Source of the DNA: Eledone cirrhosa
Lineage: Eukaryota
Assembly (NCBI GenBank): GCA_964016885.1
Contig: OZ024754.1
Location: 24,304,001 to 24,368,000, forward strand
Reading direction: 5' to 3'
DNA length: 64,000 bases
Under the pieces are notes generated by a model that was given only the letters and a program-made list of their open reading frames with translations, was not told where the DNA came from and did no database searches. Positions 32,091 through 60,422 of the stretch are shown here, piece after piece. The first letter of the stretch is position 1; each line of letters starts with the position of its first letter. The position numbers and the translations under genes are program-made.

Positions 32091-33088
32091 TTTTAAAAAA
32101 GGGGGATAAAGTTCCAAAACAAATCGGTAAAAATGAAAAATGAAAAATGAAAAACCCAGGGATATATTTAAAGAATATTTTTCTCTTTAATCCGAGGGAA
32201 TAAATATTTTCATAATTTTTACATTAAGTGGATTTAAGTTTTATTAAATATTACTTGAGCGGGAGAGACCTTGTATATATTTATCATCCTACAGTCTAAT
32301 AATTGGTATTAAATAATTTACACTACTACACGCTTAAATTTTTTGAGACGACATAAAGATGGACAGATATAAGAGTATTTAGAATGTTGTTCTAGAAGAA
32401 GCAAGCAGAGTATATTTCAAATATTGAACCTATTTCCTGCTTTTATACATTCATCCTATTGTTTACCTGTCATAGATTTGTTTCGATTGGTATGTCAATC
32501 TTTTCAATTATTAAATTTTATTTTTTAATATGTTTATGTTTGAATGTTTTTATGTGTGAGTGTGCCATGTGGTTTATGTCCCGTAACAGTAATTCGACTA
32601 AAACCGATAATTCGAGAAACCGATAAAATAAGTACCAAACTTTAAAAAAAAAAAGTTTTGGGGTTGATATGATCAACTTAATGAAGACGGTGCCACAGTT
32701 TGGCCGCAGTCTACAGACTGAAACAAATAAAACAACAACAATAACAATAAAACAATACATATTAGATAAAGTTGTCAGAAATAAACAGATAAGTTGATTA
32801 TTTTAGTGTTCACCTCGACAATAACAACTCTACTTCGACAATACAACGACAATACAACGACAATACAACGACAATAACAACTACTACAACAACTACAACT
32901 ACAACATGTTAGACAAACGATGACCTGGACCCAGGGTTGGTGCTAACATTATTTTGCTCCACCTAGGCAAGGTAAACTACTTCCAGACCCACTTGCACAC
33001 TTCGATTTTTCGAAAACAAATTTAGTTCGGTACTGTCCGATAAGTGCGCCCTAGTCCACCTCATGGACGTAGCGGTCGTGTTTTGGAG

Positions 33089-33441
33089 TTAACCCTTTAG
33101 CATTTAAACTGACTGTATCTGGCCAGAATTCTCTCACCTCTTTCTGTTCAAACCGGCTGTAACTGGTCACTCATACTGGTTTTGAGGTATTATTCTCAAA
33201 ATAAATAATATAAAAATCTCATAGTTCAATATTGTTTCTACTTTTTGGCACAAGGCCAGCAATTATCCAGTGTATTACTGGTACTTTATTTTATCGACCC
33301 CGTAAGGATGAAAGGCAAAGTCAACCTCGGCGGGATTTGAACTCAGATCGTAAATATTTCAATATTGTGAGATAATTATGTGAAGTAAAGACTTTAATGT
33401 GAAAATACAATAGTAAATAAAGTAATGTAAATGCTAATGGT

Positions 33442-33444
<3 letters not shown>
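33089..33444. mobile_element. piggyBac-like MITE (TTAA TSD) interrupted by a 5'-truncated family-A SINE (33230-33354, minus)
   Basis: ttaa-ccctttagcattta ... taaatgctaatgg-ttaa. The SINE is flanked by ttcaatattgt at 33225-33235 and 33358-33368. Confidence 0.7.
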
Positions 33445-33472
<28 letters not shown>

Positions 33473-34601
33473 TAACAACAGCAAGCAGTATTTACTTTAT
33501 AATGTTCAAAATAGTCGACTAAACATTTAGTAGTAATAAAAATATACTTAACAAATCCGAGTTAATTCTATTGCAGACGGAATATCTTCGACATGTTCTC
33601 GTTAGACGAAGGTTCAGTTTTGCTAAGAATTACTATACTGAACTTTCCACGTTCCCCCTTTTTTCCCCTTCTCCTTCTCCTCATAAGATACTAATTGGCA
33701 AAGCTTAGCGATGCGACAAACATTCTGTATCACCTACTGTGGATGGAACAAAATTACCTAGAAGGAATAAGGAATACCTTCCTACTTAAAATAAATAAAT
33801 AAATAAATAACAACAGCAACAGCAGCACATCAGCTGAAGCTACCTAAGTAGGAATTGTACAACCTCTTTATAACAGGAGGCATCTTACCTCCACCCGATC
33901 CCTTTCCATAAGGGCGTAAATAATAGGGGAAAAAATTTGTCACTTCATATTTAGAAAGTCAAATAAATACTAATTAAGGATTGGATGATTTCTACATTTT
34001 AGTGATATCTCTTGTTTTATTTAAAAATGAAGGCAGAGTAGAGATGACGCTAGAGGACGGATGTGGGTAGAAGACAGATGAAGGCAGAAGAAAGATGAAG
34101 GCAGAGAATGTATAAGGGCAGAGGGCGTATGAGGACAGAGGACAGATAAAGGATAAATAGAACAACGGATCCTTTGAGCGTTCACTTTGACGCTTGATTT
34201 ATGGGTTCTTCCTTGTTTGTTTGTTTGTTTTTTCTCTTTCGATTTACTTTTTGTTTATTTTCCCTTTCGGTTTGTTAATTAATAATTTCCATCGAATTGT
34301 GAACACCGTAGAGGAAGGAAGTGACAAGCGGCCGTCCAGCCGAATCCGTGACCTAGTTCTTATTTCCGGCCGAAGCCTCTTCAATTTCCTTACGTTGCTA
34401 ATGCCTTTCAGAACGGCATGAATGCCGTATAGTCACATTTCTTCTCCTTCCCCTTACAATTAATCCGAGATCGTGTGTCTCTATAAGCAAACAATTAATA
34501 ACAATACATTGTCAATCGGTGCAGAATAAAGTTTAGCTTCTGGCAGGCCAAGTTCGAGATTTAGCGCGGCAGTTCGGTATTTCACTCCATTATATTTCAA
34601 A

Positions 34602-34790
34602 GGGCGGTGGATTGGCAATATCAGTAGAGGGTCGGACGCCATGCTTTCCAGCATAGTTACGTCCCTTTACGATCTGAGTTCAAATCCCGCCGAGGTTGAC
34701 TTTGCCTTTCATCCTTACGGGGTCGATAAAATAAAGTACCAGTAATGCACTGGGTAATTGCTGGCCTTGTACCTAAAGTATAGACAATTA
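34602..34790 (+). mobile_element. Full-length SINE family A with 13-bp TSD
   Basis: TSD attatatttcaaa at 34589-34601 and 34787-34799. Confidence 0.93.
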
Positions 34791-35109
34791 TATTTCAAAT
34801 CTAATATTTCCTTACCACTCTTTAAAATTCTTTGTTGTTCTAAATATGTAAGAAACAATTCAGGGTCGTAGTTTGTTATGGTAAACGTACTTCTCCGCAC
34901 CTCACCCCGTCATACAATCACCTACTCCAGTTCTATCTTTCCTTCTATCTGTCTGCCTGCCTGCCTGCCTGCCCCCCTCTCTCTCTCTCTCTCTCTCTAA
35001 TATATATATATAGCAAATCGTACTTTTTATTATTATTAGTGAACAGTATTTACTTTATAATGTTCAAAATAGTCGCTCTGAATATACGCTTGTAGTTTGA
35101 GGAATGGAA

Positions 35110-35800
35110 AAAATTGAGAGGGCGCTTGCCCTGCTGGTCAGGGTGGCCGTGGTCTTTTGTGTGGTTTTCGCCACGAGTAACCCTCGGAGGTTTCCCCCCT
35201 ATTGGGGAATTTTTCATTGTTTAAATTTTCATTTTTATTGTTTATATATATATATATATATATGCTTCTATGTCTTTTTTTCTTTTTCGTTACATATATA
35301 AATAATAAAAATCTTTACACGCACAAAACCCACATCGTACCGTCCTGTCCCGTCATGTGCAGTCTGTAATGTTTTCTTGGTGTCAGCCCTTGTGGCCAAT
35401 AAAGAAATTAGAGAGGCAAGAATGGCCCGAGTGAATGGGCCTACTCTGAGTATGTGTCTGTAAATTAAAGGTGGAAAACTGGGAGAGGGCACTTGCCCTG
35501 GTGGTCAGGGTCACTGTGGCTTTTTAATGGGCTTTCTCCACGAATGTCCTTCGGAAGTCTCCCCCGTATTGGGGAATTTTTCATTGTTATTATTTTGTTA
35601 CATCCTCTGGTTTTGTTTTTTACACGCAGAAATGCCCATTTGTACCGTCCTGTAATAATAATAATAATAATAATAATACTTTCTTTATTAACCACAAGGG
35701 TTTACATAAAGTAGACATTAAGGACAGTACAGGACAATAGTCATATACTGTCCTTAATGTCTACTTTATGTAAACCCTTGTGGTTAATAAAGAAAGTATT

Positions 35801-35816
<16 letters not shown>
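35110..35816 (+). mobile_element. Two tandem LINE 3' ends (possibly L1/Tx1 clade); the second carries an inverted duplicate of its own terminus
   Basis: gagagggc.cttgccctg.tggtcagggt...tattggggaatttttcattgtt...cccttgtgg..aataaagaaa occurs twice. ORF end ARMARVNGPTLSMCL* at ~35415-35463. Another copy lies at 63885-64000 (minus). Confidence 0.65.
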
Positions 35817-35846
<30 letters not shown>

Positions 35847-35896
35847 ATGAGTAGAATACTCAGTATTTGTCTCTCAACAGTTCTGCTCTATTAGTT

Positions 35897-35934
<38 letters not shown>

Positions 35935-35980
35935 AGATCAAAAGATGGTTAAAAAAACTCACCTCCTACATATATATATA

Positions 35981-38900
35981 TATATATGTGAATATAGACA
36001 TAGAATATTCGAAAATATTCTGTATGTTTATAATAAACATTTTGAAGACCTAATCGCTATAGAATAGAATACGTCACGTATTACAATTAGATTCTCGATA
36101 AAAGCAAGGGAAGTAATCTACGCGTTTCATTCTTGTTAGAAATCATCAGGACTACATATCCAGTGCTTTTATCGAGAATGACACAGCTAGAGACTTATAG
36201 AATACTTAGCTGTGTACAGGAACTGGTTTGAAAGAGCGGTTGCCGGTCCGGCAGAAATTAGAAATTGGAATAAATGCTCTGAAATAGCGATATATATGTG
36301 AATATAGACATAGAATATTCGAAAATATTCTGTATGTTTATAATAAACATTTTGAAGACCTAATCGCTATAGAATAGAATACGTCACGTATTACAATTAG
36401 ATTCTCGATAAAAGCAAGGGAAGTAATCTACGCGTTTCATTCTTGTTAGAAATCATCAGGACTACATATCCAGTGCTTTTATCGAGAATGACACAGCTAG
36501 AGACTTATAGAATACTTAGCTGTGTACAGGAACTGGTTTGAAAGAGCGGTTGCCGGTCCGGCAGAAATTAGAAATTGGAATAAATGCTCTGAAATAGCGA
36601 TATATATGTGAATATAGACATAGAATATTCGAAAATATTCTGTATGTTTATAATAAACATTTTGAAGACCTAATCGCTATAGAATAGAATACGTCACGTA
36701 TTACAATTAGATTCTCGATAAAAGCAAGGGAAGTAATCTACGCGTTTCATTCTTGTTAGAAATCATCAGGACTACATATCCAGTGCTTTTATCGAGAATG
36801 ACACAGCTAGAGACTTATAGAATACTTAGCTGTGTACAGCAACTGGTTTGAAAGAGCGGTTGCCGGTCCGGCAGAAATTAGAAATTGGAATAAATGCTCT
36901 GAAATAGCGATATATATGTGAATATAGACATAGAATATTCGAAAATATTCTGTATGTTTATAATAAACATTTTGAAGACCTAATCGCTATAGAATAGAAT
37001 ACGTCACGTATTACAATTAGATTCTCGATAAAAGCAAGGGAAGTAATCTACGCGTTTCATTCTTGTTAGAAATCATCAGGACTACATATCCAGTGCTTTT
37101 ATCGAGAATGACACAGCTAGAGACTTATAGAATACTTAGCTGTGTACAGGAACTGGTTTGAAAGAGCGGTTGCCGGTCCGGCAGAAATTAGAAATTGGAA
37201 TAAATGCTCTGAAATAGCGATATATATGTGAATATAGACATAGAATATTCGAAAATATTCTGTATGTTTATAATAAACATTTTGAAGACCTAATCGCTAT
37301 AGAATAGAATACGTCACGTATTACAATTAGATTCTCGATAAAAGCAAGGGAAGTAATCTACGCGTTTCATTCTTGTTAGAAATCATCAGGACTACATATC
37401 CAGTGCTTTTATCGAGAATGACACAGCTAGAGACTTATAGAATACTTAGCTGTGTACAGGAACTGGTTTGAAAGAGCGGTTGCCGGTCCGGCAGAAATTA
37501 GAAATTGGAATAAATGCTCTGAAATAGCGATATATATGTGAATATAGACATAGAATATTCGAAAATATTCTGTATGTTTATAATAAACATTTTGAAGACC
37601 TAATCGCTATAGAATAGAATACGTCACGTATTACAATTAGATTCTCGATAAAAGCAAGGGAAGTAATCTACGCGTTTCATTCTTGTTAGAAATCATCAGG
37701 ACTACATATCCAGTGCTTTTATCGAGAATGACACAGCTAGAGACTTATAGAATACTTAGCTGTGTACAGGAACTGGTTTGAAAGAGCGGTTGCCGGTCCG
37801 GCAGAAATTAGAAATTGGAATAAATGCTCTGAAATAGCGATATATATGTGAATATAGACATAGAATATTCGAAAATATTCTGTATGTTTATAATAAACAT
37901 TTTGAAGACCTAATCGCTATAGAATAGAATACGTCACGTATTACAATTAGATTCTCGATAAAAGCAAGGGAAGTAATCTACGCGTTTCATTCTTGTTAGA
38001 AATCATCAGGACTACATATCCAGTGCTTTTATCGAGAATGACACAGCTAGAGACTTATAGAATACTTAGCTGTGTACAGGAACTGGTTTGAAAGAGCGGT
38101 TGCCGGTCCGGCAGAAATTAGAAATTGGAATAAATGCTCTGAAATAGCGATATATATGTGAATATAGACATAGAATATTCGAAAATATTCTGTATGTTTA
38201 TAATAAACATTTTGAAGACCTAATCGCTATAGAATAGAATACGTCACGTATTACAATTAGATTCTCGATAAAAGCAAGGGAAGTAATCTACGCGTTTCAT
38301 TCTTGTTAGAAATCATCAGGACTACATATCCAGTGCTTTTATCGAGAATGACACAGCTAGAGACTTATAGAATACTTAGCTGTGTACAGGAACTGGTTTG
38401 AAAGAGCGGTTGCCGGTCCGGCAGAAATTAGAAATTGGAATAAATGCTCTGAAATAGCGATATATATGTGAATATAGACATAGAATATTCGAAAATATTC
38501 TGTATGTTTATAATAAACATTTTGAAGACCTAATCGCTATAGAATAGAATACGTCACGTATTACAATTAGATTCTCGATAAAAGCAAGGGAAGTAATCTA
38601 CGCGTTTCATTCTTGTTAGAAATCATCAGGACTACATATCCAGTGCTTTTATCGAGAATGACACAGCTAGAGACTTATAGAATACTTAGCTGTGTACAGG
38701 AACTGGTTTGAAAGAGCGGTTGCCGGTCCGGCAGAAATTAGAAATTGGAATAAATGCTCTGAAATAGCGATATATATGTGAATATAGACATAGAATATTC
38801 GAAAATATTCTGTATGTTTATAATAAACATTTTGAAGACCTAATCGCTATAGAATAGAATACGTCACGTATTACAATTAGATTCTCGATAAAAGCAAGGG

Positions 38901-39184
38901 AAGTAATCTACGCGTTTCATTCTTGTTAGAAATCATCAGGACTACATATCCAGTGCTTTTATCGAGAATGACACAGCTAGAGACTTATAGAATACTTAGC
39001 TGTGTACAGGAACTGGTTTGAAAGAGCGGTTGCCGGTCCGGCAGAAATTAGAAATTGGAATAAATGCTCTGAAATAGCGATATATATGTGAATATAGACA
39101 TAGAATATTCGAAAATATTCTGTATGTTTATAATAAACATTTTGAAGACCTAATCGCTATAGAATAGAATACGTCACGTATTAC
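35981..39184 (-). repeat. Left arm of 310-bp hammerhead satellite (retrozyme-like): 10 full units plus a partial unit, ribozyme on minus strand
   Basis: Unit start tatatatgtgaatatagaca at 35981, 36291, 36601 ... 39081. First minus-strand HHR at 36113-36155. Confidence 0.97.
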
Positions 39185-42100
39185 CAGTTCCTGTACACAG
39201 CTAAGTATTCTATAAGTCTCTAGCTGTGTCATTCTCGATAAAAGCACTGGATATGTAGTCCTGATGATTTCTAACAAGAATGAAACGCGTAGATTACTTC
39301 CCTTGCTTTTATCGAGAATCTAATTGTAATACGTGACGTATTCTATTCTATAGCGATTAGGTCTTCAAAATGTTTATTATAAACATACAGAATATTTTCG
39401 AATATTCTATGTCTATATTCACATATATATCGCTATTTCAGAGCATTTATTCCAATTTCTAATTTCTGCCGGACCGGCAACCGCTCTTTCAAACCAGTTC
39501 CTGTACACAGCTAAGTATTCTATAAGTCTCTAGCTGTGTCATTCTCGATAAAAGCACTGGATATGTAGTCCTGATGATTTCTAACAAGAATGAAACGCGT
39601 AGATTACTTCCCTTGCTTTTATCGAGAATCTAATTGTAATACGTGACGTATTCTATTCTATAGCGATTAGGTCTTCTAAATGTTTATTATAAACATACAG
39701 AATATTTTCGAATATTCTATGTCTATATTCACATATATATCGCTATTTCAGAGCATTTATTCCAATTTCTAATTTCTGCCGGACCGGCAACCGCTCTTTC
39801 AAACCAGTTCCTGTACACAGCTAAGTATTCTATAAGTCTCTAGCTGTGTCATTCTCGATAAAAGCACTGGATATGTAGTCCTGATGATTTCTAACAAGAA
39901 TGAAACGCGTAGATTACTTCCCTTGCTTTTATCGAGAATCTAATTGTAATACGTGACGTATTCTATTCTATAGCGATTAGGTCTTCAAAATGTTTATTAT
40001 AAACATACAGAATATTTTCGAATATTCTATGTCTATATTCACATATATATCGCTATTTCAGAGCATTTATTCCAATTTCTAATTTCTGCCGGACCGGCAA
40101 CCGCTCTTTCAAACCAGTTCCTGTGCACAGCTAAGTATTCTATAAGTCTCTAGCTGTGTCATTCTCGATAAAAGCACTGGATATGTAGTCCTGATGATTT
40201 CTAACAAGAATGAAACGCGTAGATTACTTCCCTTGCTTTTATCGAGAATCTAATTGTAATACGTGACGTATTCTATTCTATAGCGATTAGGTCTTCAAAA
40301 TGTTTATTATAAACATACAGAATATTTTCGAATATTCTATGTCTATATTCACATATATATCGCTATTTCAGAGCATTTATTCCAATTTCTAATTTCTGCC
40401 GGACCGGCAACCGCTCTTTCAAACCAGTTCCTGTACACAGCTAAGTATTCTATAAGTCTCTAGCTGTGTCATTCTCGATAAAAGCACTGGATATGTAGTC
40501 CTGATGATTTCTAACAAGAATGAAACGCGTAGATTACTTCCCTTGCTTTTATCGAGAATCTAATTGTAATACGTGACGTATTCTATTCTATAGCGATTAG
40601 GTCTTCAAAATGTTTATTATAAACATACAGAATATTTTCGAATATTCTATGTCTATATTCACATATATATCGCTATTTCAGAGCATTTATTCCAATTTCT
40701 AATTTCTGCCGGACCGGCAACCGCTCTTTCAAACCAGTTCCTGTACACAGCTAAGTATTCTATAAGTCTCTAGCTGTGTCATTCTCGATAAAAGCACTGG
40801 ATATGTAGTCCTGATGATTTTTAACAAGAATGAAACGCGTAGATTACTTCCCTTGCTTTTATCGAGAATCTAATTGTAATACGTGACGTATTCTATTCTA
40901 TAGCGATTAGGTCTTCAAAATGTTTATTATAAACATACAGAATATTTTCGAATATTCTATGTCTATATTCACATATATATCGCTATTTCAGAGCATTTAT
41001 TCCAATTTCTAATTTCTGCCGGACCGGCAACCGCTCTTTCAAACCAGTTCCTGTACACAGCTAAGTATTCTATAAGTCTCTAGCTGTGTCATTCTCGATA
41101 AAAGCACTGGATATGTAGTCCTGATGATTTCTAACAAGAATGAAACGCGTAGATTACTTCCCTTGCTTTTATCGAGAATCTAATTGTAATACGTGACGTA
41201 TTCTATTCTATAGCGATTAGGTCTTCAAAATGTTTATTATAAACATACAGAATATTTTCGAATATTCTATGTCTATATTCACATATATATCGCTATTTCA
41301 GAGCATTTATTCCAATTTCTAATTTCTGCCGGACCGGCAACCGCTCTTTCAAACCAGTTCCTGTACACAGCTAAGTATTCTATAAGTCTCTAGCTGTGTC
41401 ATTCTCGATAAAAGCACTGGATATGTAGTCCTGATGATTTCTAACAAGAATGAAACGCGTAGATTACTTCCCTTGCTTTTATCGAGAATCTAATTGTAAT
41501 ACGTGACGTATTCTATTCTGTAGCGATTAGGTCTTCAAAATGTTTATTATAAACATACAGAATATTTTCGAATATTCTATGTCTATATTCACATATATAT
41601 CGCTATTTCAGAGCATTTATTCCAATTTCTAATTTCTGCCGGACCGGCAACCGCTCTTTCAAACCAGTTCCTGTACACAGCTAAGTATTCTATAAGTCTC
41701 TAGCTGTGTCATTCTCGATAAAAGCACTGGATATGTAGTCCTGATGATTTCTAACAAGAATGAAACGCGTAGATTACTTCCCTTGCTTTTATCGAGAATC
41801 TAATTGTAATACGTGACGTATTCTATTCTATAGCGATTAGGTCTTCAAAATGTTTATTATAAACATACAGAATATTTTCGAATATTCTATGTCTATATTC
41901 ACATATATATCGCTATTTCAGAGCATTTATTCCAATTTCTAATTTCTGCCGGACCGGCAACCGCTCTTTCAAACCAGTTCCTGTACACAGCTAAGTATTC
42001 TATAAGTCTCTAGCTGTGTCATTCTCGATAAAAGCACTGGATATGTAGTCCTGATGATTTCTAACAAGAATGAAACGCGTAGATTACTTCCCTTGCTTTT

Positions 42101-43174
42101 ATCGAGAATCTAATTGTAATACGTGACGTATTCTATTCTATAGCGATTAGGTCTTCAAAATGTTTATTATAAACATACAGAATATTTTCGAATATTCTAT
42201 GTCTATATTCACATATATATCGCTATTTCAGAGCATTTATTCCAATTTCTAATTTCTGCCGGACCGGCAACCGCTCTTTCAAACCAGTTCCTGTACACAG
42301 CTAAGTATTCTATAAGTCTCTAGCTGTGTCATTCTCGATAAAAGCACTGGATATGTAGTCCTGATGATTTCTAACAAGAATGAAACGCGTAGATTACTTC
42401 CCTTGCTTTTATCGAGAATCTAATTGTAATACGTGACGTATTCTATTCTATAGCGATTAGGTCTTCAAAATGTTTATTATAAACATACAGAATATTTTCG
42501 AATATTCTATGTCTATATTCACATATATATCGCTATTTCAGAGCATTTATTCCAATTTCTAATTTCTGCCGGACCGGCAACCGCTCTTTCAAACCAGTTC
42601 CTGTACACAGCTAAGTATTCTATAAGTCTCTAGCTGTGTCATTCTCGATAAAAGCACTGGATATGTAGTCCTGATGATTTCTAACAAGAATGAAACGCGT
42701 AGATTACTTCCCTTGCTTTTATCGAGAATCTAATTGTAATACGTGACGTATTCTATTCTATAGCGATTAGGTCTTCAAAATGTTTATTATAAACATACAG
42801 AATATTTTCGAATATTCTATGTCTATATTCACATATATATCGCTATTTCAGAGCATTTATTCCAATTTCTAATTTCTGCCGGACCGGCAACCGCTCTTTC
42901 AAACCAGTTCCTGTACACAGCTAAGTATTCTATAAGTCTCTAGCTGTGTCATTCTCGATAAAAGCACTGGATATGTAGTCCTGATGATTTCTAACAAGAA
43001 TGAAACGCGTAGATTACTTCCCTTGCTTTTATCGAGAATCTAATTGTAATACGTGACGTATTCTATTCTATAGCGATTAGGTCTTCAAAATGTTTATTAT
43101 AAACATACAGAATATTTTCGAATATTCTATGTCTATATTCACATATATATCGCTATTTCAGAGCATTTATTCCA

Positions 43175-43176
<2 letters not shown>
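39183..43176 (+). repeat. Right arm of 310-bp hammerhead satellite: ~12.9 units, ribozyme on plus strand
   Basis: aaaccagttcctgtacacag at 39491, 39801 ... 42901 is the reverse complement of the left-arm unit. The arm ends at ...ttattccaat and runs into (AT)n. Confidence 0.97.
39255..39297 (+). ncRNA. Minimal type I hammerhead ribozyme (one of 23 copies, repeated every 310 bp)
   Basis: Helix I gtagtc/gattac, CTGATGA 39261-67, helix II ttct-aaca-agaa with U.U at its base, GAAAC 39282-86, palindromic helix III ACGCGT, cleavage after GTA 39289-91. Helix I is extended by a perfect 16-bp pair, 39231-39246/39304-39319. Confidence 0.93.
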
Positions 43177-43222
<46 letters not shown>

Positions 43223-53834: not shown

Positions 53835-55189
53835 TGGTTGTGAGAGTAGATTGAAAGAGAGACATAGAGAGAGGGAAAGGAGAATGGAAGAGAGAGAGAG
53901 AGAGAGCTTGTGGTGATCACAGACACCCACATACACACACAGACCCCCCCCCCCCACACACATATATATATATATGTATACAAACACACACATTTATATA
54001 TATACATATTTATATACATTGGCCTTCCAGTTTCATTTCACATTATATACTTGTCTGTTTAATTATTTAAAAATTATCATATAAGTGAATATGATTTTAA
54101 AAAAATATTTTGAAGGGAACGTGACCCAACGGGTGGTCAAGTAAAATATAAAAATAACACCTCAACCTATAATAACAAAGTACAACGATATGATTGGTGT
54201 AATGCAAGCCAACTACAGAAGAAACGACCGAACGAGCAATATTTCATTAGTTGATACGTACTGCTACTTTAGACCATGACTTTCTGAATGGCACGCCTAA
54301 TTACAAAATTGCCTTGAATCTTTTAGTAATGTGGCCCACCGTATGAACCACATCCTATATTGCCTAATGCTCGAAAAAAAGGTTGCCAATGCTTGCTTGA
54401 GACACTACCCGTGGGAAGCCAACTCAGTGCTGATGGTGGTGAGTAGGGAGGTGGCAAATAAATAAACACTTCTAGCGACACAGATTAGCAAAAAGAGCAT
54501 AGCCATTTTCAGAGAGAGAGAGAGAAAATCCTTCACTCCAGTACTGGATTGGATGAAATTCAAAGTTGATCTTGGTGGGATTTGAACTGAAAGTGCAGAG
54601 ATTGAAGGAATAACGTAAAGCATTCTGTCGACGTCCTAATGACTCAGCCAAATCACTGCCTCTACGGATTATAGGATATGAAAATTTAAAAAATGATATA
54701 CAGGTAAACAACAGCGAAGTTAATCAGTGGAAAACAGCAGAACGAACGAATCAGCATATGAAACGACGTTCACCATAGACAACTACTTCATTATAAACCA
54801 GCCAATGGAGACAATAGCCTTAGGCAATACAATGAACCCACTCTGTTGAATATAAAACTAACCTGAAGCTCGTCAGATAACACTCCTGTCTGAGGTGGTA
54901 GTGGTAGTAAAGGCCATTGTAATAGTAGTATTAGTGGTGATTAGTGGCAACGATGGAATAGGGGGTTGCGGTGTAGTAGTGGTATAAGTGATTATGGTAT
55001 TAGTGGTGGTGTGTGTAGAAGTGGTAGTAGGGGATGGTGGGTGTGTTATAGGTGATGGTGGTAATAAAGGTGATTATAGAAGTAGTAATGGTGGTGATAG
55101 TGGTAGTATAGGTCATTGTTATAGTAGTGGTGGGGTGTATGTAGAAATGTTGATAATGTTTGGGGGTGGATGTATAGATGGTGGTTGTG

Positions 55190-56150
55190 GTAGTGGTATG
55201 ACGGGGGTGAAGGTGATGGTAGTAGTGGTATGACGGGGGTGAAAGTGGTGGTAGTAGTGGTATGACGGGGGTGAAGGTTGTGGTGGTAGTAGTGGTATGA
55301 CGGGGGTGAAGGTGGTGGTAGTAGTGGTATGGCGGGGGTGTAGGTAGTGGTAGTAGTGGTATGACGGGGGTGTAGGTGGTGGTAGTAGTGGTATGACGGG
55401 GGTGAAGGTGGTGGTAGTAGTGGTATGGCGGGGGTGTAGGTAGTGGTAGTAGTGGTATGACGGGGGTGTAGGTGGTGGTAGTAGTGGTATGGCGGGGGTG
55501 TAGGTAGTGGTAGTAGTGGTATGGCGGGGGTGTAGGTAGTGGTAGTAGTGGTATGACGGGGGTGTAGGTGGTGGTAGTAGTGGTATGACAGGCGTGAAGG
55601 TGGTGGTAGTAGTGGTATGACGGGGGTGTAGGTGGTGGTAGTAGTGGTATGACGGGGGTGAAGGTGGTGGTAGTAGTGGTATGACGGGGGTGAAGGTGGT
55701 GGTAGTAGTGGTATGACGGGGTGTAGGTGGTGGTAGTAGTGGTATGGCGGGGGTGTAGGTAGTGGTAGTAGTGGTATGACGGGGGTGTAGGTGGTGGTAG
55801 TAGTGGTATGACGGGGTGTAGGTGGTGGTAGTAGTGGTATGGCGGGGGTGTAGGTGGTGGTAGTAGTGGTATGACGGGGTGTAGGTAGTGGTAGTAGTGG
55901 CATGACGGGGGTGAAGGTGGTGGTAGTAGTGGTATGACGGGGGTGTAGGTGGTGGTAGTAGTGGTATGACGGGGGTGTAGGTGGTGGTAGTAGTGGTATG
56001 ACGGGGGTGTAGGTGGTGGTAGTAGTGGTATGACGGGGGTGAAGGTGGTGGTAGTAGTGGCATGACGGGGGTGAAGGTGGTGGTAGTAGTGGCATGACGG
56101 GGGTGAAGGTGGTGGTAGTAGTGGTATGACGGAGGTGAAGGTAGTGGTAG
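55190..56150. repeat. G-rich ~32-bp minisatellite (ggtatgacgggggtgtaggtggtggtagtagt)
   Basis: Tandem units; these generate the spurious Pro/His/Thr-rich ORFs on the minus strand. Confidence 0.95.
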
Positions 56151-56319
56151 TAGTGATAGTGGATGTGGAAATGGTGGTAGTGGTGGTGGGGATGGTGTGG
56201 TATTGGTGGAAGGTGATATGTAGATGATGGTTGCGGAGATATGACAGTGGAGGTGGTTGTAGTAGTGAGAGTGGTGAGGGGTGTTGGTAGGGGATTTGGA
56301 AGTAATGGTGATGATAGGT

Positions 56320-57949
56320 GTAGAGTGGTGGTAGTGGTGGTAGTTGTAGTAGTGGTGGTAGTTGTGGTAGTGGTGGTAGTGGTGGCAGTTGTCTTAGTTG
56401 TAGTAGTGGTGGTAGTTGTGATAGTGGTGGTAAGGGTGGCAGTTATCGTAGTTGTAGTAGTGGTGGTAGTTGTGATAGTGGTGGTAGTGGTGGCAGTTGT
56501 AGTAGTTGTAGTAGTGGTGGTAGCTGTGATAGTGGTGGTAGTGGTGGCAGTTGTAGTAGTTGTAGTAGTGGTGGTAGGTGTGATAGTGGTGGTAGTGGTG
56601 GCAGTTGTAGTAGTTGTAGTAGTGGTGGTAGCTGTGATAGTGGTGGTAGTGGTGGCAGTTGTAGTAGTTGTAGTAGTGGTGGTAGGTGTGATAGTGGTGG
56701 TAGTGGTGGCAGTTGTAGTAGTTGTGATTGTGATAGTGATGGTAGTTGTGGTAGCGGCGGTAGTGGTGGCAGTTGTAGTAGTTGTAGTAGTGGTGGTAGT
56801 TGTGATAGTGGTGGTAGTGGTGGCAGTTGTCGTAGTTGTAGTAGTGGTGGTAGTTGTGATAGTGGTGGTAGTGGTGGCAGTTGTCGTAGTTGTAGTAGTG
56901 GTGGTAGTTGTGGTAGTGGTGGTAGTGGTGGCAGTTGTCGTACTTGTAGTAGTGGTGGTAGTTGTGGTAGTGGTGGTAGTTGTGATAGTGGTGGTAGTTG
57001 TGGTAGTGGTGGTAGTGGTGGCAGTTGTCGTAGTTGTAGTAGTGGTGGTAGTTGTGGTAGTGGTGGTAGTGGTGGCAGTTGTCGTAGTTGTAGTAGTGGT
57101 GGTAGTTGTGGTAGTGGTGGTAGTGGTGGCAGTTGTCGTAGTTGTAGTAGTGGTGGTAGTTGTGGTAGTGGTGGTAGTGGTGGCAGTTGTCGTAGTTGTA
57201 GTAGTGGTGGTAGTTGTGGTAGTGGTGGTAGTTGTGATAGTGGTGGTAGTGGTGGCAGTTGTCGTAGTTGTAGTAGTGGTGGTAGTTGTGGTAGTGGTGG
57301 TAGTGGTGGCAGTTGTCGTAGTTGTAGTAGTGGTGGTAGTTGTGATAGTGGTGGTAGTTGTGATAGTGGTGGTAGTTGTGGTAGTGGTGGTAGTGGTGGT
57401 AGTGGTGGCAGTTGTCGTAGTTGTAGTAGTGGTGGTAGTTGTGGTAGTGGTGGTAGGTATAGAAGTGACAGTAGTGGTGGTAGTTGTGGTAGTGATGGTA
57501 GGTATAGAAGTGACAGTAGTGGTGGTAGTTGTGGTAGTGGTGGTAGGTATAGAAGTGACAGTAGTGGTGGTAGTGGTGGTAGGTATAGAAGTGACGGTAG
57601 TGGTGGTAGTTGTGGTAGTTGTGGTAGTGGTGGTAGTGGTGGTAGTGGTGGTAGTGGTGGTAGTGGAGGTAGTGGTGGTAGTTGTGGCAGTGGTGGTAGT
57701 GGTAGCAGTTGTCGTAGTTGTAGTAGTGGTGGTAGTTGTGATAGTGGTGGTAGTTGTGGTAGTGGTGGTAGTTGTGATAGTGGTGGCAGTTGTCGTAGTT
57801 GTAGTAGTGGTGGTAGTTGTGGTAGTGGTGGTAGTGGTGGTAGTGGTGGCAGTTGTCGTAGTTGTAGTAGTGGTAGTGGTGGATGAAAGGTGAAAAAATA
57901 TTGCTAGTAGGGGAAACAGCTGAATAAACAGAAAAATACAGTAATTTTG

Positions 57950-58008
<59 letters not shown>

Positions 58009-58024
58009 GGTGGTGGTGGTGGTG

Positions 58025-58086
<62 letters not shown>

Positions 58087-58123
58087 AGTAGTAGTAGTAG
58101 TAGTGGTAGTAGTAGTAGTAGTA

Positions 58124-58191
<68 letters not shown>

Positions 58192-58198
58192 GGTGGTG

Positions 58199-58260
<62 letters not shown>

Positions 58261-58297
58261 AGTAGTAGTAGTAGTAGTGGTAGTAGTAGTAGTAGTA

Positions 58298-58349
<52 letters not shown>

Positions 58350-58471
58350 GAGTAGTAGTAGTGGTAGTGGTAGTAGTAGTAGTAGTGGTGGTGGTGGTGG
58401 TGGTGGTGGTGGTGGTGGTGGTGGTAGTGGTAGTAGTAGTAGTAGTAGTAGTAGTGGGAGTAGTAGTAGTG

Positions 58472-58503
<32 letters not shown>

Positions 58504-58540
58504 AGTAGTAGTAGTAGTAGTGGTAGTAGTAGTAGTAGTA

Positions 58541-58590
<50 letters not shown>
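56320..58590. repeat. GTN-triplet satellites ((gta)n/(gtg)n/(gtt)n with longer-period units)
   Basis: Source of the poly-Val ORFs. Confidence 0.95.
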
Positions 58591-58594
<4 letters not shown>

Positions 58595-58857
58595 ATGGTG
58601 GTGGTGGTGTTTGTTGTTGTCGGAGGTGGTGGGAATGGTGGCGATAGTAGTAGTGTAGTGGTTTTTGTCGTAGTTGGTGGTGTTGGTGGTGGTAGTGGTG
58701 GTAGTGGTGATAGTTATGGTGTTGGTGGTGTTGGTGGTGGTAGTGGTGGTAGTGGTGATAGTTATGGTGTTGGTGGTGTTGGTGGTGGTAGTGGTGGTAG
58801 TGGTGGTAGTGGTGATAGTTATGGTGTTGGTGGTGTTGGTTGTAATATGACGGTTAG

Positions 58858-59402
58858 GATGGGTGTAGGGTGGGGTTAGGTTGCGACGATGGGTGTAGGG
58901 TGGGGTTAGGTTGCGACGATGGGTGTAGGGTGGGGTTAGGTTGGGTGTAGGGTGGGGCTAGGTGGGTGTAGGGTGGGGTTAGGTTGCGACGATGGGTGTA
59001 GGGTGGGGTTAGGTTGGGTGTAGGGTGGGGCTAGGTGGGTGTAGGGTGGGGTTAGGTTGGGTGTAGGGTGGGGCTAGGTGGGTGTAGGGTGGGGTTAGGT
59101 TGCGACGATGGGTGTAGGGTGGGGTTAGGTTGCGACGATGGGTGTAGGGTGGGGTTAGGTTGCGACGACGGGTGTAGGGTGGGGCTAGGTTGCGACGACG
59201 GGTGTAGGGTGGGGTTAGGTTGGGTGTAGGGTGGGGCTAGGTGGGTGTAGGGTGGGGTTAGGTTGCAACGATGGGTTTAGGGTGGGGCTAGGTTGGGTGT
59301 AGGGTGGGGCTAGGTGGGTGTAGGGTGGGGCTAGGTTGGGTGTAGGGTGGGGCTAGGTGGGTGTAGGGTGGGGCTAGGTTGCAACGATGGGTGTAGGGTG
59401 GG
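58858..59402. repeat. G-rich minisatellite gggtgtagggtgggg(t/c)taggtt(gcgacgat)
   Basis: Tandem 21-30 bp units with closely spaced GGG/GGGG runs. Confidence 0.93.
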
Positions 59403-59453
59403 ATTAGTTATGACAGTAGTGATGGAATGATGATGAGGATGATGATAGTAATG

Positions 59454-59611
59454 ATAATTGTTTCTACTTTAGGCACAAGGCCAGCAATTAACCAGTACAT
59501 TACTGGTACTTTATTTTATCGACCCCGTAAGGATGAAAGGCAAAGTTAACCTCGGTGGGATTTGAACTCAGACCGCAAAGGGACGTAACTATGCTGGAAA
59601 GCATGGCATCC
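59454..59611 (-). mobile_element. SINE family A, 5'-truncated
   Basis: Matches 12029-12187 and ends at gcatggcatcc. Confidence 0.9.
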
Positions 59612-60422
59612 TGATGATAATGCCAAGGTATTGGTGATGGTGTTAGTAGAAGTGGTGATGGTAGTGATGATGATAATGCCAAGGTATTGGTGATGGTGTT
59701 AGTAGAAGTGGTGATGGTAGTGATGATGATAATGCCAAGGTATTGGTGATGGTGTTAGTAGAAGTGGTGATGGTAGTGATGATGATAATGGCGAGGTATT
59801 GGTGATGGTGTTAGTAGAAGTGGTGATGGTAGTGATGATGATAATGCCAAGGTATTGGTGATGGTGTTAGTAGAAGTGGTGATGGTAGTGATGATGATAA
59901 TGCCAAGGTATTGGTGATGGTGTTAGTAGAAGTGGTGATGGTAGTGATGATGATAATGCCAAGGTATTGGTGATGGTGTTAGTAGAAGTGGTGATGGTAG
60001 TGATGATGATAATGCCAAGGTATTGGTGATGGTGTTAGTAGAAGTGGTGATGGTAGTGATGATGATAATGCCAAGGTATTGGTGATGGTGTTAGTAGAAG
60101 TGGTGATGGTAGTGATGATGATAATGCCAAGGTATTGGTGATGGTGTTAGTAGAAGTGGTGATGGTAGTGATGATGATAATGGCGAGGTATTGGTGATGG
60201 TGTTAGTAGAAGTGGTGATGGTAGTGATGATGATAATGGCGAGGTATTGGTGATGGTGTTAGTAGAAGTGGTGATGGTAGTGATGATGATAATGGCGAGG
60301 TATTGGTGATGGTGTTAGTAGAAGTGGTGATGGTAGTGATGATGATAATGGCGAGGTATTGGTGATGGTGTTAGTAGAACTGGTGATGGTAGTGATAGAA
60401 TGATGATGATAATGGCGAGGTA
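59612..60422. repeat. 56-bp minisatellite, ~14 copies, two variants (gccaagg / ggcgagg)
   Basis: tgccaagg at 59621, 59677, 59733 and onward, period 56. Confidence 0.95.

What the first reader, a model, noticed from the sequence alone, without database searches (positions are those of the whole stretch)
35960..43200. The ribozyme array is a large inverted repeat with both 3' ends primed on (TA)n: signature of twin-primed insertion from a multimeric or circular template
Seen: orientation flips once, at 39183-39184 (gtattAC|cagttcc, 2-nt microhomology), and the two arms break at different positions in the unit. In ribozyme sense both arms point outward. The left arm ends where the unit's internal acatatatat merges with (TA)n (~35971-35987), and the right arm ends at ttccaat|atatat (43176). 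I found only five substitutions in 7.2 kb (36840, 39677, 40125, 40821, 41520). Established: twin priming in target-primed reverse transcription gives 5'-to-5' junctions with microhomology, and Penelope-like insertions often carry inverted 5'-truncated segments. Inference: one very recent event in which both ends of a (TA)n break primed rolling reverse transcription for 10-13 rounds on a 310-nt circle.
Basis: partly seen in the sequence, partly recalled or inferred. Interest (0 to 1): 0.85.

Follow-up and report, generated by a model that had tools for sequence, protein, structure and literature searches.

The report
Two-armed retrozyme copied from one RNA
This 7-kb mirror-image repeat is one of more than a thousand insertions of a small non-coding element with a predicted self-cutting RNA motif, and its fixed ends, together with one sister copy whose likely RNA edits recur in every unit, indicate that a Penelope-type jumping-gene enzyme likely copied a single, probably circular, RNA round and round from both sides of one DNA cut.

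Summary
It is a non-LTR retrozyme, and the shape is the family rule: about 1,300 ends of each of two kinds. All 128 scorable two-armed insertions of 148 examined pair an end at unit position 139 with one at 165-172: the Penelope-type 'tail' between two fixed start sites. Both arms share one haplotype in 82 of 85 (15% expected). One sister locus carries the same 14 A-to-G changes in every unit of both arms; two probes for them hit no other edited array. That points to one ADAR-edited monomer read nine times, hence a circle. Twin priming is supported with a correction: only the 139 end uses TA homology. 'Very recent' is unproven, a few insertions fit a linear multimer, and no partner element was identified. 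The scan found this family and a similar editing fossil before, on other DNA of this genome.

The parts
35970..35987 (.). Left (AT)n target tract; 35980-35987 is shared with the unit's ACATATATAT motif (unit 132-139)
   Evidence: sequence
35980..39184 (-). Left arm, 10.3 units of 310 bp, 3' end at unit position 139 (short, homology-assisted end), 5' break at unit position 35
39183..39184 (.). Head-to-head junction with 2-nt microhomology AC
39183..43176 (+). Right arm, 12.9 units, 5' break at unit position 202, 3' end at unit position 165 (long end)
39230..39319 (+). First complete type I hammerhead domain of the right arm (core CTGATGA 39261-39267, GAAA, 1-bp stem III with palindromic CGCG loop, predicted cut after 39291); repeated every 310 bp, 13 plus and 10 minus copies
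39292..39601 (+). One monomer from cut site to cut site (predicted circular RNA, 34% GC, longest ATG ORF 30 codons; circular fold z -4.6)
43151..43176 (+). 26-nt 'tail' (unit 140-165) present at the outer end of one arm only
43177..43198 (.). Right (AT)n target tract, followed by (GT)n

Best explanation
The array is one insertion of a non-coding hammerhead retrozyme whose two arms end at the same two fixed sites as its sister insertions, and it was likely made by a Penelope-like reverse transcriptase/endonuclease that primed both ends of one staggered cut in (TA)n on a single, probably circular, 310-nt RNA. Steps: (1, inferred from known retrozymes) tandem transcripts self-cleave through a double hammerhead and monomers are ligated to circles; (2, inferred) a Penelope-type GIY-YIG enzyme cuts (TA)n with a 12-15 nt stagger, as the duplications at imperfect targets show; (3, ends shown, priming inferred) one 3' overhang starts cDNA at unit position 165-167 with almost no homology, the other anneals to the AU-rich tract at 125-139; each site is used once per event; (4, inferred from shared haplotype and the edited sister locus) both enzymes read the same ribozyme-sense molecule for several rounds, displacing each other's cDNA; (5, junctions shown, pathway inferred) the two cDNAs stop at scattered points and are joined head-to-head through short microhomology or filler.
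For: Ends: 1301 long and 1253 short ends genome-wide; 62 of 62 outward-facing end pairs on the first 218 Mb of C1 are mixed, none same-type; 128 of 148 examined insertions are two-armed and mixed, 17 single-armed, 3 unscorable. Priming by the target: the outermost copy of the 139 arm has lost C131 in 83 of 117 arms, against 23 of 1171 inner copies; target duplications of 12-15 bp overlap that tract at imperfect targets (L034 15, L112 13, L198 13, L107 12). One template: arms share a haplotype in 82 of 85 insertions, 15% expected among 30 haplotypes. RNA, sense strand, monomer: L181 has 14 A-to-G changes on a known haplotype, identical in all units of both arms; a probe for two of them finds only that locus (8 matches), a second probe gives 9 edited copies there and 3 single-change matches elsewhere; none of the 14 falls in the ribozyme domain (p 0.004). 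Long at birth: 158 of 165 private substitutions are single-unit, 0 of 7 repeated ones are in adjacent units; they are strand-biased (T>C 35, A>G 13, p 0.013), as copying errors would be. Arms cross the cut site up to 27 times; 3 of 248 5' breaks lie within 10 nt of it (16 expected). Junction microhomology of 2 nt or more in 23 of 44 flush junctions, 18% expected. The genome holds RT + GIY-YIG frames (L151, 938 aa) that also end in AAT before (AT)n. Matches the in vitro behaviour of a Penelope-like protein: both strands cut and extended, two adjacent internal start sites bounding the tail (PMC11167929).
Against: The hyper-edited array is a single locus; the circle is extrapolated from it to the window's insertion. 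Three of 85 insertions change haplotype along an arm (L071, L110, L194), and in L071, L060 and L216 a variant sits only in the outermost unit(s) of both arms, which fits a linear multimer primed in one unit, or joint template switching, better than one monomer circle. Six private variants are shared between arms (0.13 expected); gene conversion or polishing errors could also give this. 17 insertions have one arm, and 21 of 65 scored junctions have filler rather than microhomology. No autonomous partner with a homologous terminal repeat was found among 50 GIY-YIG loci. PMC11167929 saw no strand preference for the two start sites in vitro, so the strict pairing is not reproduced there. Cleavage, circularisation and expression were not tested.
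Confidence: 0.8

Rival explanations
1. Same double priming by a Penelope-type enzyme, but on an uncleaved linear multimer transcribed from an older array; both primers sit in one unit or in different units of that transcript.
For: Outer-unit-only variants in both arms of L060, L216 and L071. In vitro, hammerhead cleavage was not needed and unprocessed RNA was the main substrate (PMC11167929).
Against: Identical 14-site edit pattern in all units of L181, with no second such locus found by two probes; shared variants in inconsistent registers in L189 and L172; 30 haplotypes each uniform over up to 27 units need a monomer bottleneck at some generation; arrays would only shrink.
Confidence: 0.12
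2. Single priming, then the cDNA folds back and copies itself (self-priming, as proposed for head-to-head Penelope repeats in PMC3846280), the second end being joined by microhomology at the AT-rich motif.
For: Would explain mixed ends, shared haplotype and some shared variants; some junctions have long internal palindromic overlaps.
Against: A fold-back arm cannot exceed its template, yet the 139 arm is longer in 57 of 124 insertions (21.7 against 1.6 units in L173) and the 165 arm in 67; shared variants in L189 and L172 are not in one mirrored register.
Confidence: 0.04
3. A short inverted insertion was later expanded in place by unequal crossing-over or slippage.
For: Would give uniform arrays; L051 has two variants repeated at a 7-unit interval, so some later exchange occurs.
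Against: No substitution shared by adjacent units (0 of 7 repeated events, 158 of 165 single-unit); strand-biased private changes.
Confidence: 0.03
4. The inversion is an assembly chimera.
For: This junction itself was not checked with spanning reads.
Against: 128 loci with the same polarity, fixed ends and a different junction each; short-read contigs of run X1 show (AT)n loose ends at unit 139 and 170 (X1 may be this assembly's source).
Confidence: 0.01

Closest known systems
Metazoan non-LTR retrozymes (Cervera and de la Pena 2020, PMC7229834: passages and Discussion read; Li, Clavereau and Pollet 2026, 10.64898/2026.07.22.740005: parts 1-3 of 5 read, introduction to discussion)
   Same: Tandem 310-bp non-coding unit, 34% GC, one type I hammerhead per unit with a 1-bp stem III and palindromic tetraloop like axolotl HHR_Amex1; co-occurs with Penelope-like elements; both papers propose copying of a circle and PLE mobilisation.
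   Different: In the parts read, neither describes two-armed head-to-head arrays, fixed paired ends, a tail or fossil editing (one search found no such words in the preprint's main text); the preprint leans to local amplification by unequal crossover, which the variant pattern here argues against.
Endonuclease-bearing Penelope-like elements: inverted 5'-truncated copy, 30-40 bp tail, (TA)n targets (Craig et al. 2021, PMC8557442, passages; Arkhipova et al. 2013, PMC3846280, passages)
   Same: Head-to-head arms, tail on one arm only, microsatellite target, TSD of about 8-15 bp, hammerhead near the terminal repeat.
   Different: No ORF; both arms are multimers; the tail is 26 nt (to 33 with late starts); those papers ascribe the tail to endonuclease resolution and the inversion to self-priming, whereas the data here favour two primings on one RNA.
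Poseidon PAc in vitro (Frangieh et al. 2024, PMC11167929, parts 1-2 of 4 read)
   Same: AT-rich cleavage of both strands, both extended, two adjacent internal start sites downstream of the hammerhead that bound the tail, predicted dimer.
   Different: No strand preference for the start sites was seen, no pairing rule, linear templates only, and initiation without homology; here one of the two sites is homology-assisted and the two are used once each.
L1 twin priming
   Same: Two target 3' ends prime on one RNA; 5'-to-5' junction with microhomology; TSD.
   Different: L1 primes at poly(A) and at a variable internal site and yields non-overlapping segments of a linear RNA in a minority of insertions; here both sites are fixed, both arms repeat the whole unit, and it is the rule.

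Membership tests
Non-LTR retrozyme | Tandem repeat of 150-450 bp, GC under 50%, non-coding | tested here: met
   310 bp, GC 0.34, longest ATG ORF 30 codons round the circle
Non-LTR retrozyme | Type I hammerhead in every unit | tested here: met
   Full core in 23 copies; Rfam HH9 match only at E 0.059, below gathering; double-hammerhead fold; 0 of 38 fixed haplotype substitutions hit 11 invariant core positions (not significant alone)
Non-LTR retrozyme | Dispersed copies with TSD longer than 4 bp | tested here: met
   About 1,300 ends of each type; 12-15 bp duplications at 4 imperfect targets; not measurable at this locus
Non-LTR retrozyme | Self-cleavage and expression as linear and circular monomers | not testable with these tools
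   No RNA run was available; an RNA intermediate is inferred from L181
Penelope-like element (autonomous) | ORF with RT and GIY-YIG endonuclease | tested here: not met
   Non-coding; so not filed as a PLE, only as mobilised like one
PLE-mobilised insertion | Inverted 5'-truncated copy, head-to-head | tested here: met
   128 of 148 insertions
PLE-mobilised insertion | Tail of about 30-40 bp at one end only | tested here: met
   26 nt (up to 33) on exactly one arm in 128 of 128 scorable pairs
PLE-mobilised insertion | (TA)n target | tested here: met
   At least 4 TA units at both ends in 122 of 124; biased, because loci were chosen through a TA-flanked end
PLE-mobilised insertion | Homology to the pseudo-LTR of an autonomous element | tested here: inconclusive
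   None among 50 of 150 listed GIY-YIG loci (10,597 candidates)
L1-type twin priming | Poly(A)-primed first arm and non-overlapping segments of a linear RNA (recalled definition) | tested here: not met
   No poly(A); both arms repeat the whole unit

The most novel reading that the evidence does not exclude
Twin priming is the programmed, normal mode of Penelope-type integration: an enzyme dimer sets the two target strands on two fixed sites of one RNA, which explains the long-unexplained inverted repeat and one-sided tail, and on a retrozyme circle both enzymes roll for up to 27 rounds. The ADAR-edited sister array is then a fossil single-molecule record of rolling-circle reverse transcription in an animal germ line.
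Probability: 0.6. Interest if true: 0.85.

Novelty: new variant of a known kind. Interest (0 to 1): 0.72.

Why it matters
How Penelope-like elements make their inverted repeats and tail is described as undefined in the papers read, and copying of retrozyme circles into DNA has been proposed but not shown. This family gives more than a thousand near-identical natural products with readable rules: two fixed start sites used once each, one template per event, and one event that preserves RNA edits in every round. These rules name the RNA strand, the template topology and the exact substrate (a 310-nt circle plus a (TA)n duplex) for a direct in vitro test.

Tried and rejected
DNA search of the own genome with one unit returned nothing because common words are skipped; patterns were used instead. 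No RNA holder was listed among the sequencing runs; this says nothing on expression. The unit is held by runs under 17 organism labels, three of them as a lone 340-nt circular contig (X12, X2; also X5, X6), which suggested a free or horizontally moving RNA; rejected as evidence because X12, X5 and X6 also hold other repeats of this genome, so related species or carry-over suffice; a DNA run of the same study as X12 gave 0 reads in 1938 million letters (no control stretch, no test). The empty site could not be read: depth was 0 at 35860-35969 in all four runs. A search for sister loci of the haplotype switch in L071 could not be run, so its source array remains unknown. A family with a similar hammerhead core near GIY-YIG frames (L156, L159, L167) looked like the partner but appears to be a separate small insertion. 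5' breaks are not enriched at the cut site or at the 139 site; their scarcity near the cut may be an alignment effect of the unit's internal palindrome. Two probes for T-to-C (antisense) editing gave 0 and 2 single-change matches, too weak to exclude antisense templates. A>G excess among ordinary haplotype variants is only borderline (14 vs 6, p 0.04, polarity uncertain). Rows dropped before the counts: L033 (N gap), L036, L108 and the second insertion of L035 (duplicates); L181 and L190 were classed by hand; L220, labelled same-type by the script, runs off the fetched region and is unscorable; L103, L181, L195, L209 were left out of the variant counts.

Full report
Observation. The array is as described. 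The left arm (35980-39184, minus strand, 10.3 units) and the right arm (39183-43176, plus strand, 12.9 units) overlap by AC, and the five listed substitutions are the only differences from the unit. Each unit has a type I hammerhead: complete core, stem II with a 4-nt loop, a 1-bp stem III closed by the palindrome CGCG, and a long stem I. Rfam gives only a weak HH9 match (E 0.059; nothing at gathering score). Folding 391 nt with two motifs gives a double hammerhead as the best structure, the form described for axolotl HHR_Amex1 (PMC7229834, passage). The unit is non-coding. I number it from the predicted cut, so that window 39292 is position 1.

The shape is the family rule. An exact 35-nt core probe has 4498 matches in the 3.0-Gb genome, control 0, and most listed clusters run minus then plus. 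Ends where position 165 (or 167) meets (AT)n number 1301, ends at 139 number 1253. Among the first 94 and 100 listed ends on C1, 62 outward-facing pairs lie within 30 kb; all 62 join one 139 end with one 165 end, in either order; 70 ends were unpaired at that strictness. I fetched 61 of the 62 pairs, 44 of the 70 unpaired ends, 40 of the 230 ends of the late-start type and a few loci. Of 148 insertions examined, 128 are two-armed with mixed ends, 17 have one arm, 3 are unscorable, and none is a true same-type pair. The 26 nt between the two sites are therefore a tail on one arm only, the known mark of Penelope-like insertions (PMC8557442 and PMC3846280, passages), shown in vitro to lie between two internal start sites of reverse transcription (PMC11167929).

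How the two ends were primed. At the 139 end the outermost copy has lost C131 to a target letter in 83 of 117 arms, while inner copies have T there in 23 of 1171: target DNA annealed over the AU-rich tract and replaced it. At imperfect targets a duplication of 12-15 bp can be read and it lies over unit 125-139 (L034, L112, L198, L107). The 165 end has only AT in common with the target and varies by a few bases (165-172). In the edited locus, where the AU tract became GU-rich, the short arm starts further in, near 126, as an annealing model predicts.

One template per event. Each insertion has its own haplotype, fixed in all units. With both arms at two units or more, 82 of 85 agree, 15% being expected from 30 haplotypes. 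Arm lengths are broad (medians 3.4 and 4.7 units, maxima 21.7 and 27.3), weakly correlated (rho 0.23), and either arm may be longer (67 against 57). 5' breaks are scattered, 3 of 248 near the cut site. Of 65 junctions scored exactly, 44 are flush or overlapping, with 2 nt or more of microhomology in 23 (18% expected), and 21 have filler.

Evidence for an RNA circle. L181 (G000:C1:380305186-380307579) has 4.5 and 3.3 units, and every unit carries the same 14 A-to-G changes in ribozyme sense on top of a haplotype seen unedited at five other loci. A probe needing two of the changes hits only this locus; a second probe gives nine copies here and three single-change matches elsewhere. Clustered one-strand A-to-G change is the signature of ADAR editing (my knowledge). 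Editing of a linear multimer should differ from unit to unit; an identical pattern means one edited monomer was read nine times by both arms, or that it was so read one generation earlier. None of the 14 edits falls in the ribozyme domain that holds 28 of the 92 adenosines (p 0.004), as expected if that RNA still had to cut and close. Private changes agree with arrays that were long at birth: 158 of 165 are single-unit, none of the 7 repeated ones is in adjacent units, and T>C exceeds A>G on the ribozyme strand (35 to 13, p 0.013).

Results against the simple picture. The edited array is one locus. Six private variants occur in both arms of an insertion (0.13 expected). In L189, L172, L051 and L120 the registers differ, which fits error-prone sites on a re-read template or later gene conversion; in L060 and L216 the variant is only in the outermost unit of both arms, and in L071 both arms switch haplotype after two outer units, which fits a linear multimer or a joint template switch. 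Some events may thus use linear multimers. The window's own insertion has no diagnostic variant. Its 0.69 private changes per kb exceed the family mean of 0.42, so it is young but not shown to be 'very recent'. The genome has many GIY-YIG frames (150 scored of 10,597 candidates) and open RT frames, but none of the 50 loci inspected shares a terminal repeat with this unit. No spanning read, empty site or RNA was seen.

Comparison and novelty. It is a member of the non-LTR retrozymes on every sequence feature that could be tested, and works like a Penelope-mobilised passenger. Mobilisation by Penelope-like elements and copying of circles were proposed (PMC7229834, Discussion; 10.64898/2026.07.22.740005). 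Eight full-text searches and a word search of the preprint found no description of two-armed retrozyme arrays, the pairing rule or fossil editing in a retrozyme. The library lacks most subscription papers, and I read no supplements; the model figure S9 of PMC7229834, the supplements of PMC11167929 and the closed bioRxiv files may bear on this. The scan itself had noted the same family and architecture, and an editing fossil in another array, elsewhere in this genome; I found L181 before reading the latter note, and treat those notes as leads only.

Verdict. Real, correctly read, a new variant of a known kind. Best explanation 0.8; interest 0.72, because it turns two open questions, the origin of Penelope's inverted repeat and tail and the circular template of retrozymes, into defined tests.

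Noticed in passing
L181 (G000:C1:380305186-380307579): Two-armed array with the same 14 A-to-G changes in all units of both arms; likely an ADAR-edited monomer copied nine times.
   Followed up: yes
L071:502-6903, L110, L194, L060, L216: Haplotype switches or variants confined to the outer unit(s) of both arms; unexplained by a single monomer circle.
   Followed up: partly
window:35658-35817: Small head-to-head palindrome (78-nt arms, 97%) of another repeat flanked by (TAA)n and (TA)n, 150 bp left of the array; probably another Penelope-type mini-insertion.
   Followed up: no
window:33243-33354 and 34666-34777: Two oppositely oriented copies of a very high-copy short repeat, 96% alike.
   Followed up: no
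L097:130-437, L064:3231-3688, L087:3121-3227, L122:2425-2870, L098:8460-8601, L229:3061-3429: Diverged relatives (73-80%) that keep the tail motif and the same long end before (AT)n, some also head-to-head; the conserved motif is a candidate binding site for the partner enzyme.
   Followed up: partly
L195:1855-6011: A 4.2-kb LINE with an open 1081-aa frame (APE endonuclease, RT, PHD finger) has jumped into an arm of this young family, so it is younger still.
   Followed up: partly
L151:2273-8398: Penelope-like element with a 938-aa RT + GIY-YIG frame and 1.07-kb terminal repeats ending in AAT before (AT)n; no canonical hammerhead found by my pattern.
   Followed up: partly
L037:2599-2870: 272 bp of unrelated GC-rich sequence captured at the junction between the arms.
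   Followed up: no
L209:573-8557 and L041:502-5235: Three- and four-segment insertions with internal restarts, still bounded by one long and one short end.
   Followed up: no
runs X2, X5, X6, X12 on window:39292-39601 and 33000-36290: The unit is nearly identical in runs under many organism labels, also in X6 whose other shared repeats are mostly 90-95% alike; carry-over, close relatives or horizontal spread were not told apart.
   Followed up: partly
window:1-6333 and 55180-60408: Long strand-skewed minisatellite blocks (29-bp, 32-bp, 9-bp, 56-bp units).
   Followed up: no
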